From the NCBI RefSeq assembly GCF_009914755.1, contig NC_060944.1: a DNA stretch of 64,000 nucleotides; one strand, 5' to 3'. A model generated the notes under the pieces. The model was not told the origin of the DNA. It worked only from the letters and a program-made list of their open reading frames with translations, and did no database searches. This DNA comes from the human T2T-CHM13v2.0 reference genome, Homo sapiens. Every line of letters begins with the position of its first letter. The stretch's first letter is position 1. Shown here piece by piece: positions 34,905 through 53,800 of this stretch. The position numbers and the translations under genes are program-made.

Positions 34905-34918
34905 GTTGCCCTGGCAAC
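34905..34918. promoter_or_regulatory. RFX X-box-like palindrome GTTGCCCTGGCAAC
   Basis: One mismatch to the canonical X-box palindrome GTTGCCATGGCAAC. Confidence 0.55.
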
Positions 34919-35545
34919 GGCCATTCTCCCTTCTCTCCTGGCTGCTCTCAGCTGGGGAGCATGCCCACTTCTCTCTAACCTGTAGAGAAACTCTCATCTT
35001 GATCTGTCTCCCTTCTGTCCCCTCTCTCCTTCCATCATCAGAAGAGCTGGGGAGGGAGCCATTGGCTTCAGTGTTGCCACCCCTGCTTCCTCTGTGCCAG
35101 CCAAGGTGCTCAGGCAGGGCCCTCTACCCACCTCCTGTGTGCCAGATCTTCAGTCTCTTGTCCTTTGCACGTTCATCTGCCCAATGTGAGAGGTCCCTGT
35201 GGGTGTCTTATGGGCTCCTCCTCACCATTGGCTACAATGACCTCTTTTCCTTCCCTTCCCAAACCCATCTTTCAAGAATAACACACTGTATGTCCCCTTT
35301 GATGAAGCCTCTGCTGGCTTCTTCCCCCCAGGACCCCCATCATCTCCCAAGAGCTCCCCCAAGGAACAGCCAGGCATGCCTTGGTTTGGGCACTTTTCTC
35401 CCCTACGAGACTGTGAACCTTGATGTCAGGGTCTTCTGTGGATGTCAGCACAGAGGAAGGCTAGGGATGTGTGTGGCTGGGTGGGGAAGGGGATGGACAG
35501 ATAGACGGAAGTCATGTATGTCTGTGGGTTTCCTCTTTGTCTTAC

Positions 35546-50800: not shown

Positions 50801-53800
50801 GCTCAGCGATGGCACGATGCTAGCCTGAAATTGGCCATGGTGGTAGTATTTACACTACAGAAGCGGGCACAAGCAACCCATAGGGAACATTCTCCCCAGA
50901 GGGCCAGTGTGCAAGCATACCCCAGGATGCACCCTGTTTCACAGATCTGGGTCTTTCGGGAGAGAGCTGCACTGTGGGTGACCAGCTCTCCTGTGGATGG
51001 ACATGGGTGTTTTCCCCTTTTCACCATGACAGATAATGTCACCACAACCTTATCTGTCACCGATTCCTCTTCTGCCTTGCCCTCTGCTGGGTTCTGGTGT
51101 GGTGGGGCGGTGGGGCGGAGGGGTCCTCAGAATTCGTCTACAGTATGTGGGTTCTTTTCTGTCTGTCCATGGAATGTGCTGCCTCTTCAGGTCTCTGGGA
51201 GTCTGTCTCTCTCCTTCCTTCCTTCATCTTTCCTCATCCTCTCCCTCGTTTCTTCTCCTCCTCTCCAGATTTGGCCCTTGCCCCAAGGGTCACGATCTGT
51301 GGCTGCTTCTGTGTGGAGGTGTGGGTCCCACTGTGCACCCCTCTATTTAGGCCCTTTGTCAGGCTTGTCCTCCCCCGTCTTTCCCTCCTCTTCCATGTGC
51401 ACGCATCTCTGCATCTGCCTGCGTCTCAGCTCCCCGAGGGTCCTGCCGCCCCCTCTTCATTTCATTTTTTAACTTTATTATTGATGTGCCCCGCCAACAC
51501 TGCCTCTTCCTGCATCTTGCTCAGCCTCGCTCCCTCTCGCTCTCCAGAGGAGGCTTATTGGATTTTGCTTCAAGTCTGTGCGTCATTCCTGCTCTGTGCA
51601 TGTGTGCGCACATGTTCGTGCGTGTGTGTGCCTACCACTTTCCCCGTCAGCTCCCTCTCTCTCTTTCTGGGGCTTGGAGAGTTTTACTCTATGTGTGTGT
51701 GCACAGGTGCACATGTGTGTGAGTCACTTCTCTGTAAGGTATGGTCAGGGCTGGGTCCCACCCTCCCTGTCACTCTCATGAACTCCATCTATCCACAACA
51801 TGCCTGGTGAGCTCTGGACCAAGGTTTGTCCATCTGTCCTCTCCTGTTCTCTTCTTTCCCTCCTCTTGCGCTGCACCTGCCCTCTGCACAAGAGGTGCCC
51901 CTTATGCACCTTGGGCATAGAGGCCTCTGTAAGGACATCCCCCAATCTCCTTCTGCGTCTGAAAATCACCCACCTTCATTCTCTGTTGCATGCCACAGAT
52001 TTGGGGCCAGTGTTGACTGGGGCCCTCCAGAGGTACCTCAAACTCATCTAATCATCTCTGCACTACAAACTGGCCCCTTTCCTGTTCTCATTAACACTGA
52101 ATGTCAGTGCCTTCCTCGGTGTGGTGCTGCAGCCAGGAGCCCTGCATCGTCTCTGACTACTCCTGTTTAGCCACCCACAGCCCATCTGTTCCCCCTCCCT
52201 GCCAACTCTTTCTCCGAGGGGCTGCTAAAGGCCCCCATTCTCTCAGTCCCTGCTGCAGCATCGTGTGGAGATGAGGGGATAATTGTCTTCCTTTGTCCAT
52301 CCATTCATCCATCCATCCATCCATGCATGCATTCATCCAACCATCCATCCATCCATCCATCCATCCATCCATCCATCCATGCATCCATCCATCCATCCAT
52401 CCATCCATCCATCCATCCATCCATCCATGCATCCATCCATCCATCCATCCATCCATCCATCCATCCATCCATCCATGCATCCATCCATCTATGCATCCAT
52501 CCATCCATCCATCCATCCATCCATCCATCCATCCATACATCTACCCACCCATCCATACATGCATCCCTCCATCCATCCATCCACCCATCCACCCTTCCAT
52601 CCATACATCTACCCATCCATCCATCCATCCATCCACCCATTCCTCCATCCATCTGTTCATTCATCCATTCATTCAGCCATCCATCTGCCCATCCACCCAT
52701 TCACCCACCTATCCATCCACCCATCCATACATATGTCCACCCACCCATTCATCTGCCTACTCTTTCATCCATCCATCCATCTATATATCCATCCATCCAT
52801 CCCTCCCTCCTACCACCTGACATACATTGAGCACCTGAGTGCTCTGTTGAAGACAAAGACTCCAAAACCCCGGGCTGTGTTCTAAGGAGTCCAGGGGGAG
52901 AGAGGACCAGTTACCACCCATGGGAAGATGGGGTGATAGGGACTTTGGAAGTCTCCAAGCATCACCGTGTGTGTTCTTGCATGTGCATATATGCATGTGT
53001 TTGCTCTGTCTTGGCCACTTTCTCAGACCCTTCTCTTTCCTCCTGATCTCTACTATCAGTGCTCCCCAGGGCTGTGTCCTCACCCCTCTGCCCTTGTCCT
53101 TCCATGGGCCATACTATCCACACCAGGGCTTCAGAGGTCCCTGCACACAAACTCCTCTGCATTTCTGTGCTCATCTCCCCTCTCCCAGACCTGTATACTC
53201 ACTGTCCTGTCCTCAGCCCCACTCAGTCATACTCCCAGCATCATACACTCCCCAGGCTCCAAACAACCTCCCTCCTCTCCAGGCTTCATCTTATGCTCTC
53301 ATCCTCCATCTCCAGGGACAGAAATCCAGGCTTCCCCTTCTCCCCACCTCCTTCCTTTAAACTTGTGCTGACTCTTTCTCCCAAATCTCCCATCTCCTCC
53401 TTTGCTCCTTTCATCCCATGGCCAGCATGGTTGCCCTGGTGACAGCCATCCTCTTCCCTCCTTCTGAGTCTGCTTTCCAGCATGAGAGATGTGTTCTGGT
53501 GACCTGTTCCTCCCATGCTCTGTCTTCTCTCTCTGTCCATCTGCAGAAAATCTGGGAAAGGGACCCTTGGCTTTACTTGCTTCCATTCCCAGCCCACGCA
53601 TACCCCATCCTTGGCAAGGGACCTCAGCCACATTGAGCCCACCATGGTTCTCAAGAGAGCTCTCCATAGACCTCCTTCTTGCCAAAGCCCATGGTCCCTT
53701 TTTCCTCCTCATTTCTCCTGGCCCATTGGGGTCCTGATTGGGGTGCCCATCCTTGCTTGGGAGGCCACTGTCTCCTCCTTCAGGACACTGGGTGCTCCTG

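What the first reader, a model, noticed from the sequence alone, without database searches (positions are those of the whole stretch)
34905..53443. RFX X-box preserved at the same position in several array units: candidate homotypic, periodically spaced enhancer system
Seen: GTTGCCCTGGCAAC at 34905-34918 and 41849-41862 (identical), TTTGCCCTGGCAAC at 49537-49550, GTTGCCCTGGTGAC at 53430-53443. Weaker relatives at 11373-11386 (ATTTCCCTGGCAAC), ~17203 and ~22423 (GCCTGGTGAC). The flanks are visibly more diverged than the 14-mer. Known: RFX factors bind the GTTGCCATGGCAAC-type palindrome and act in ciliated, neural, testis and islet cells. Inference: selection kept one RFX site per unit, forming a multi-copy enhancer cluster. 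Possible targets are SRC or the distal neighbours, which from general knowledge include the BLCAP/NNAT locus outside this window.
Basis: partly seen in the sequence, partly recalled or inferred. Interest (0 to 1): 0.75.

Follow-up and report, generated by a model that had tools for sequence, protein, structure and literature searches.

The report
Four conserved RFX sites, ancient array
Four copies of a rare binding motif for RFX transcription factors have survived much better than the DNA around them in a very old, decayed tandem duplication downstream of the human SRC gene, which suggests but does not prove that they are working regulatory sites.

Summary
GTTGCCCTGGCAAC is exact at 34905 and 41849. 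It has one change at 49537 and two at 53430.

All four sites lie at the same position of a diverged segment (nhmmer E 1e-7 to 1e-27). That segment belongs to an old tandem array at about 28-56.4 kb. Flank identity between copies is only 49-57%.

Among the four carriers, the 14-mer is the best-conserved 14-column window of 2,653 aligned columns. It scores 0.893 against a next best of 0.80, and 1 of 5,000 column shuffles reached it. It shows 3 substitutions in 14 columns against about 1.0-1.1 per flank column, and no gaps.

It is not a transposon motif. Perfect GTTGCC-NN-GGCAAC sites number only 465 in the whole genome.

"One site per unit" is wrong. Two further paralogous sub-units lost the site by deletion, and two units have no such segment. 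The "weaker relatives" at 11373, 17203 and 22423 are not homologous.

RFX occupancy, enhancer activity, target genes and cross-species conservation could not be tested. Selected RFX sites is the best reading, at about 0.55. This is an ordinary kind of element and a decent lead.

The parts
34905..34918 (.). X-box copy in unit U1, GTTGCCCTGGCAAC. It fits GTNRCC-NN-RGYAAC on both strands (T2T chr20:39156905).
41849..41862 (.). X-box copy in sub-unit U2b, identical 14-mer (T2T chr20:39163849).
49537..49550 (.). X-box-like copy in sub-unit U3b, TTTGCCCTGGCAAC. The right half-site is intact. The first G of the left half-site is changed, so it fails the strict consensus.
53430..53443 (-). X-box copy in unit U4, GTTGCCCTGGTGAC. 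Its two changes fall on degenerate positions, and it still fits the consensus when read on the minus strand (GTCACCAGGGCAAC).
34646..35151 (+). Homologous X-box segment of U1 (profile match).
   Evidence: E 8.8e-99 to a profile built from the four copies; cross-hits
41601..42100 (+). Homologous X-box segment of U2b.
49290..49800 (+). Homologous X-box segment of U3b.
53183..53692 (+). Homologous X-box segment of U4.
39324..39344 (+). Sub-unit U2a: junction of a deletion of about 34-47 nt that removed the X-box. The flanks CATGGCC and CTCTCAGC still align to the other copies.
45763..45790 (+). Sub-unit U3a: junction of a larger deletion, about 600 nt of the reference unit, that removed the X-box segment. 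Only the downstream part survives, at 45767-45946.
27998..56370 (+). Extent of the decayed tandem array. Units are 3.3-7.5 kb. The B-block copies lie at 27998, 33042, 37693, 45189, 48457, 51857 and 55927.

Best explanation
The four motifs are paralogous descendants of one X-box, a palindromic binding site for an RFX dimer. That site lay in the ancestral unit of a very old tandem duplication array in the SRC-BLCAP intergenic region.

The units have since decayed to about 50-57% identity around the site, with many indels. The 14-mer has stayed almost unchanged in four copies. The most likely reason is purifying selection for RFX binding.

I infer that each site works as a distal cis-regulatory element. 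It probably works as part of a module of about 1 kb together with the better-conserved 'B block', which lies roughly 550-800 bp upstream once microsatellites and insertions are discounted.

Shown here: common descent, excess conservation, a fit to the RFX consensus, and non-coding, non-transposon context.

Inferred only: RFX occupancy, enhancer-type activity and any target gene.
For: - Homology of the four segments: nhmmer E 1.9e-07 to 7.5e-27 between copies.
- Flank identity is 0.49-0.57 for all six pairs, so the relationship is star-like.
- The motif window has sum-of-pairs identity 0.893. It is the top window of block 2, which has 1,370 columns, mean 0.39, next best 0.80 and 99th percentile 0.75.
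- It also exceeds the maxima of block 3 (0.738) and block 1 (0.864-0.869).
- Column shuffle of blocks 2+3: 1 of 5,000 shuffles reached the observed value. Local resampling: 0 of 200,000.
- Parsimony: 3 changes in 14 motif columns against 1.03-1.12 per flank column. 11 of 14 motif columns are invariant against 26-30% of flank columns (P about 1e-4). No gap falls in the motif, while 58 of 214 neighbouring columns are gapped.
- Two of the three changes (CA to TG in U4) fall on degenerate consensus positions and keep the consensus on the other strand.
- The motif is rare. There are 56 exact copies and 465 GTTGCC-NN-GGCAAC sites in 3.1 Gb. Our two are the only exact pair closer than 50 kb.
- It is not a dispersed repeat. 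In 30 other loci that hold the exact 14-mer, only 5 matched the profile, and only over the motif itself. BLAST of the segment found only itself.
- No Rfam family matched. No Pfam hit was found in unit ORFs apart from the RPL7A pseudogene (66 of 127 ORFs scanned).
Against: - Two of six paralogous sub-units lost the site outright. Any constraint is therefore not on every copy.
- U3b breaks the strict consensus at its first base.
- The CT spacer, which the RFX consensus does not specify, is also invariant. This hints at a broader or different constraint.
- In an alignment-free count of near-copies, the word ranked only about 10th-17th among non-low-complexity 14-mers.
- B-block windows reach similar identity, 0.86-0.87.
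- The P values depend on flank alignments near the limit of alignability. With an assumed neutral pair identity of 0.70, the per-window P rises to about 1e-2.
- The four carriers were chosen because they have the motif. With all six rows the window would not be the top one.
- There are no occupancy, accessibility, cross-species or population data.
- None of the 6 RefSeq enhancer rows shown lies on a site.
Confidence: 0.55

Rival explanations
1. Neutral survivors. The ancestral unit happened to hold an X-box. Four copies escaped mutation by chance or through a locally low mutation rate, and they have no present function.
For: - Two of six copies were simply deleted.
- The spacer is conserved as well as the half-sites.
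- Under a generous neutral identity of 0.70 the per-window P is about 1e-2, and there are hundreds of windows.
- Other short blocks of the unit are about as well kept.
- No functional annotation lies on the sites in the rows shown.
Against: - It is the single best window of 2,653 columns, and 1 of 5,000 shuffles reached it.
- That best window is also a perfect example of one of the most information-rich known motifs, with 465 sites genome-wide.
- The substitutions in U4 preserve the consensus.
- The motif has no CpG, but a five-fold lower substitution rate than its flanks is not explained by composition.
Confidence: 0.27
2. The block is constrained, but for a different factor or a composite element rather than for RFX. 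The invariant core is TTGCCCTGG. A second conserved stretch lies 33 nt upstream, and GCCAT follows directly 3' in 3 of 4 copies.
For: - Positions 2-10 are invariant, spacer included.
- The second-best window (0.80) is 33 nt upstream.
- U1 and U4 share about 50 nt of elevated similarity around the motif.
Against: - I can name no other motif that fits the whole palindrome. My comparison with NFI, AP-2 and EBF consensus sequences is from recall only.
- Both half-sites are kept in 3 of 4 copies.
Confidence: 0.12
3. The motif belongs to the consensus of a dispersed repeat (transposon) that seeded each unit.
For: The units do contain dispersed repeats elsewhere, namely Alus and a SINE-like element of about 200 nt.
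Against: - Only 56 exact copies exist genome-wide.
- None of the 30 other loci examined shares flank homology.
- BLAST of 41700-42100 finds only itself. That search would miss copies below about 75% identity.
Confidence: 0.03

Closest known systems
X-box, the RFX dimer binding site (consensus GTNRCC(0-3N)RGYAAC; passage of PMC5752003)
   Same: There are two inverted half-sites with a 2-nt spacer. The consensus is matched perfectly at 34905 and 41849 and on the minus strand at 53430. Like many X-boxes, the sites are better conserved than their surroundings.
   Different: - From recall, the classical functional X-boxes sit within a few hundred bases of the start sites of ciliary genes.
- These sites are intergenic. 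They lie at least 26 kb from the SRC 3' end and at least 66 kb from BLCAP.
- They are in CpG-poor, pyrimidine-rich DNA.
- Binding is untested.
Tandem arrays with one factor site per unit, such as the CTCF sites of the DXZ4 and FIRRE repeats (recalled, not checked here)
   Same: The units are head to tail, and each inherited the same binding motif at the same position.
   Different: - From recall, those arrays are homogeneous and copy-number variable.
- This array is ancient, with 49-57% flank identity. It is not homogenised and is full of later insertions.
- Only 4 of 8 units or sub-units keep the site.
Homotypic clusters of binding sites, and redundant ('shadow') enhancers made by duplication (recalled concept)
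   Same: Several sites for one factor lie in one locus, and they arose by duplication of a module.
   Different: The sites are 3.9-7.7 kb apart, not packed within one element. Enhancer activity has not been shown.
MHC class II S-X-Y module bound by the RFX5 complex (recalled)
   Same: It contains an RFX-type X box.
   Different: There is no conserved CCAAT (Y) box and no CRE-like X2 box within 70 nt in the four copies.

Membership tests
X-box (RFX binding site) | Sequence fits GTNRCC(0-3N)RGYAAC | tested here: met
   Three of four sites fit (34905 and 41849 on both strands, 53430 on the minus strand). 49537 fails at its first base. The consensus wording comes from PMC5752003.
X-box (RFX binding site) | Occupied by an RFX protein in cells | not testable with these tools
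   No ChIP-seq or footprint data are available here. The supplement of an RFX7 ChIP paper could not be opened.
X-box (RFX binding site) | Evolutionary constraint above that of the flanks | tested here: met
   This was tested among paralogous copies only. Cross-species conservation could not be tested.
Homotypic binding-site cluster / enhancer | Several sites of one factor packed within one element (hundreds of bases to about 1-3 kb; the threshold is recalled) | tested here: not met
   The spacings are 6944, 7688 and 3893 bases. No other consensus match exists in the window.
Homotypic binding-site cluster / enhancer | Enhancer chromatin state or reporter activity | not testable with these tools
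   The hub table shows 6 of 8 RefSeq enhancer rows, and none lies on a site. One row (27761-28261) overlaps the B block of the first unit.
MHC class II type S-X-Y module | X2 (CRE-like) box and Y (CCAAT) box at fixed distance from the X box | tested here: not met
   No TGACG/CGTCA occurs within 70 nt in any copy. A CCAAT occurs in one copy only, at a position that is not conserved.
Macrosatellite-type array with a factor site per unit | Highly similar, homogenised units that each carry the site | tested here: not met
   Flank identity is 0.49-0.57. The site is present in 4 of the 6 sub-units that have the segment.
Dispersed repeat (transposon) consensus motif | Other genomic copies of the motif share homologous flanks | tested here: not met
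   None of 30 other loci has a match beyond the motif, and BLAST finds only the query itself. No repeat library was available.

The most novel reading that the evidence does not exclude
The array is an ancient multi-copy regulatory battery that selection has maintained. Each surviving unit keeps a module of about 1 kb, made of the B block with its invariant E-box-like CATCTGT plus an RFX X-box. The modules act together, as redundant enhancers or as an RFX-based architectural element, on SRC or on BLCAP/NNAT in RFX-expressing tissues such as neural, endocrine, ciliated or testis cells.
Probability: 0.2. Interest if true: 0.6.

Novelty: new member of a known kind. Interest (0 to 1): 0.35.

Why it matters
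Perfect palindromic X-boxes are rare, with 465 in this genome. Finding two perfect and two near-perfect ones kept in paralogous copies of a badly decayed duplication gives a natural replicate experiment. The same site has been tested by evolution four times in one locus.

If the sites are bound, the array would be a compact case for studying how duplicated regulatory modules are retained or lost. It would also flag an unannotated RFX input near SRC and the imprinted BLCAP/NNAT pair.

If they are not bound, this is simply an old duplication with a lucky motif.

Tried and rejected
- **Upstream 'weaker relatives':** nhmmer around 11373, 17203 and 22423 found no link to the X-box segment. The four-copy profile did not hit them at E up to 1.
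- **Transposon origin:** rejected.
- **RNA gene:** no Rfam match at gathering score in the window.
- **Decayed coding units:** I scanned 66 of the 127 stop-to-stop ORFs of at least 90 aa in 27-57.5 kb against Pfam. Only the RPL7A pseudogene passed its cut-off, and two hits were below cut-off. The other 61 ORFs, mostly in microsatellites or overlapping ones already scanned, were not scanned.
- **Array continuation:** there are no copies of the X-box segment or the B block in the next 60 kb, and only one X-box consensus match.
- **Promoter or CpG-island context and S-X-Y module:** not found.
- **Literature:** searches for RFX+SRC+BLCAP, RFX+X-box+homotypic+tandem, RFX+tandem duplication terms, NNAT+RFX+enhancer+imprinted, and the two motif strings gave nothing on this locus. 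The one promising hit used 'nNAT' in another sense.
- **RFX7 ChIP-seq peak tables (PMC8287911):** these could not be read, so they may still bear on occupancy.

Full report
**Observation.** The window is human (T2T-CHM13 chr20:39122001-39186000). It starts in the last exons of SRC.

- GTTGCCCTGGCAAC at 34905 and 41849.
- TTTGCCCTGGCAAC at 49537.
- GTTGCCCTGGTGAC at 53430.
- ATTTCCCTGGCAAC at 11373.
- GCCTGGTGAC near 17203 and 22423.

With up to two mismatches there are 8 strand hits at 6 sites. Dinucleotide shuffles give 0.71 expected, and 0 of 100 shuffles reached 8.

Against the published RFX consensus GTNRCC(0-3N)RGYAAC (a passage of PMC5752003):
- 34905 and 41849 fit on both strands.
- 53430 fits on the minus strand.
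- 49537 fails at its first base.
- Nothing else in the 64 kb fits.

**The array.** A self-comparison shows mostly Alu pairs. It also shows weak colinear matches of 68-79% identity over 84-263 nt, at offsets of about 4-7.5 kb.

I mapped one unit (51420-56200) against the window with nhmmer and with a B-block profile. This gives a decayed head-to-tail array from about 28.0 to 56.4 kb. A unit reads, in order:
- an 'A' anchor followed by (TG)n;
- a 'B' block;
- a (TCCA)n microsatellite;
- the X-box segment;
- two further blocks.

B-block copies start at 27998, 33042, 37693, 45189, 48457, 51857 and 55927. The two long units (37.2-44.25 kb and 44.25-51.5 kb) each hold two sub-units.

Later insertions sit at non-homologous places:
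- Alus.
- The RPL7AP14 pseudogene.
- A 93% identical copy of 31538-32013 at 34190-34659.
- A dispersed SINE-like element of about 200 nt at 42738-42936. It has 5,759 candidate copies in the genome, the best at 80-85% identity. I infer it is MIR-like but could not name it.

The array does not continue in the next 60 kb.

**Homology of the four sites.** The 1.4-kb stretches around the four motifs hit one another with E values from 1.9e-07 to 7.5e-27. A profile built from them recovers only these four. It also recovers the downstream remnants of two more copies, at 45767-45946 and 39391-39498.

In sub-unit U2a a clean deletion of about 34-47 nt removed the motif. The junction is at 39334/39335, and both flanks are still alignable. 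In U3a about 600 nt of the reference unit, including the motif, are missing. The first and last units have no detectable copy of the segment.

The count is therefore 4 of the 6 sub-units that have the segment, and 4 of 8 units or sub-units in all. It is not one per unit. The spacing (6944, 7688 and 3893 bases) only reflects unit lengths.

The upstream 'weaker relatives' share no flank homology with the segment. I treat them as chance.

**Conservation compared with the flanks.** Pairwise identity of the aligned flanks is 0.49-0.57 for all six pairs, so the relationship is star-like, and there are many indels.

| Region (four carriers unless stated) | Columns | Mean identity | Best 14-column window |
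|---|---|---|---|
| Block 2, holds the motif | 1,370 | 0.39 | 0.893 (the motif); next best 0.80, 33 nt upstream |
| Block 3, distal | 1,283 | 0.40 | 0.738 |
| Block 1, A/B anchors, 4-5 units | 795-828 | 0.49-0.51 | 0.864-0.869 |

Further tests:
- The 99th percentile of block 2 windows is 0.75.
- Shuffling the 2,653 columns of blocks 2 and 3 reached the observed value in 1 of 5,000 trials. Resampling local flank columns reached it in 0 of 200,000.
- By parsimony the motif took 3 changes in 14 columns, against 1.03-1.12 per ungapped flank column. 11 of 14 motif columns are invariant against 26-30% of flank columns, so P is about 1e-4.
- No gap falls in the motif, while 58 of the 214 neighbouring columns are gapped.
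- A simple branch model gives P from 2.5e-05 (neutral pair identity 0.55) to about 1e-2 (0.70) per window.

Caveats:
- The four rows were chosen because they carry the motif.
- The flanks are near the limit of alignability.
- In an alignment-free count of near-copies the word ranks only about 10th-17th among non-low-complexity 14-mers.

**What it is not.**
- It is not a transposon motif. The exact 14-mer occurs 56 times in 3.1 Gb, and only our two copies lie on chromosome 20. The only other pair within 60 kb is 52 kb apart.
- In the 30 other loci fetched, the segment profile matched 5, and only across the motif itself.
- BLAST of 41700-42100 found only itself. That search cannot see copies as diverged as the paralogs.
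- No Rfam family matched.
- Of 127 long open frames in this pyrimidine-rich DNA, I scanned 66 against Pfam. Only the RPL7A pseudogene passed.
- The sites are not in CpG islands. CpG observed/expected is 0.03-0.43.
- The sites lack the CCAAT and CRE boxes of an MHC class II type module.

**Rarity.** GTTGCC-NN-GGCAAC has 465 sites in the genome. The looser GTNRCCNNRGYAAC has 8,291 strand hits, against 5,105 for the reversed control. Five strand hits in 18.5 kb compare with about 0.05 expected from that genome-wide density. The excess is explained by common descent plus retention, not by independent origin.

**Explanation.** The best reading (0.55) is that one ancestral X-box was copied with its unit and has been kept by selection for RFX binding in four copies, while two copies lost it by deletion.

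The two changes in U4 preserve the consensus, which fits this reading. The invariant CT spacer and the conserved stretch 33 nt upstream leave room for a composite or different factor (0.12). Neutral survival remains possible (0.27).

From the tables shown, only the B block of the first unit overlaps a RefSeq enhancer row, at 27761-28261.

**Literature.** Six searches found nothing on this array or on these sites. I read passages of PMC5752003, PMC5760533 and PMC11735407 and the abstract of PMC13478331. A find in PMC2913254 returned no passages. The supplement of PMC8287911 could not be opened.

The comparisons with DXZ4/FIRRE, homotypic clusters and the S-X-Y module rest on recall.

**Verdict.** The kind of element is known, and the case is a reasonable lead that is cheap to check in public ChIP-seq and conservation tracks.

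Noticed in passing
window 27998-28348, 33042-33419, 37693-38090, 45189-45569, 48457-48715, 51857-52235, 55927-56282: The 'B block' is the best-kept part of the array. It has 7 copies, and its 129-column core has mean pair identity 0.65. It holds an invariant CATCTGT (E-box-like, recalled) and the conserved words CTCATTAGCACTGA and CAGCCAGGAGC. 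The first copy overlaps the RefSeq enhancer row 27761-28261.
   Followed up: partly
window 16422, 32726, 37351, 44377, 51533, 55683: The 'A anchor' is a block of about 80-120 nt, GTTATTGAATTTTGCTCTGAG...CATTCCTGCTGTGT, that runs into a (TG)n microsatellite in each unit. The copy at 16422 lies well upstream of the recognisable array.
   Followed up: partly
window 31538-32013 and 34190-34659: This is a young intra-array duplication, 93% identical over 480 nt and far younger than the units. It carries a copy of the A anchor into unit U1, just upstream of the X-box at 34905.
   Followed up: partly
window 13117-15026 and 20278-20522: A second, weaker set of repeated blocks lies upstream. The offsets are about 1.5 kb and about 5.5 kb, among long impure (TG)n tracts. 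It overlaps the RefSeq enhancer rows 14111-14620 and 14621-15129.
   Followed up: no
window 29414-29569, 42738-42936, 60547-60682, 63162-63363: Copies of a dispersed SINE-like repeat of about 200 nt. It has at least 5,759 candidate copies genome-wide, the best at 80-85% identity. The copies were inserted at non-homologous places in the units, which suggests that the array is older than these insertions.
   Followed up: partly
window 32224-32578, 38155-38588, 44724-44944, 48941-49071, 52296-52810: A (TCCA)n/(ATCC)n microsatellite recurs at roughly the same place in the units, just after the B block. Its length varies from 130 to 515 nt.
   Followed up: no
L034, about position 8894 (window coordinate about 92894, outside the window): This is the only X-box consensus match in the 60 kb beyond the window, GTTGCCATAGCAAC on the minus strand. 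It lies between the array and BLCAP.
   Followed up: no
window 34919-34925, 41863-41868, 53444-53449: GCCAT follows the X-box within 0-2 nt in 3 of the 4 copies. This may be part of a composite site or may be chance.
   Followed up: no
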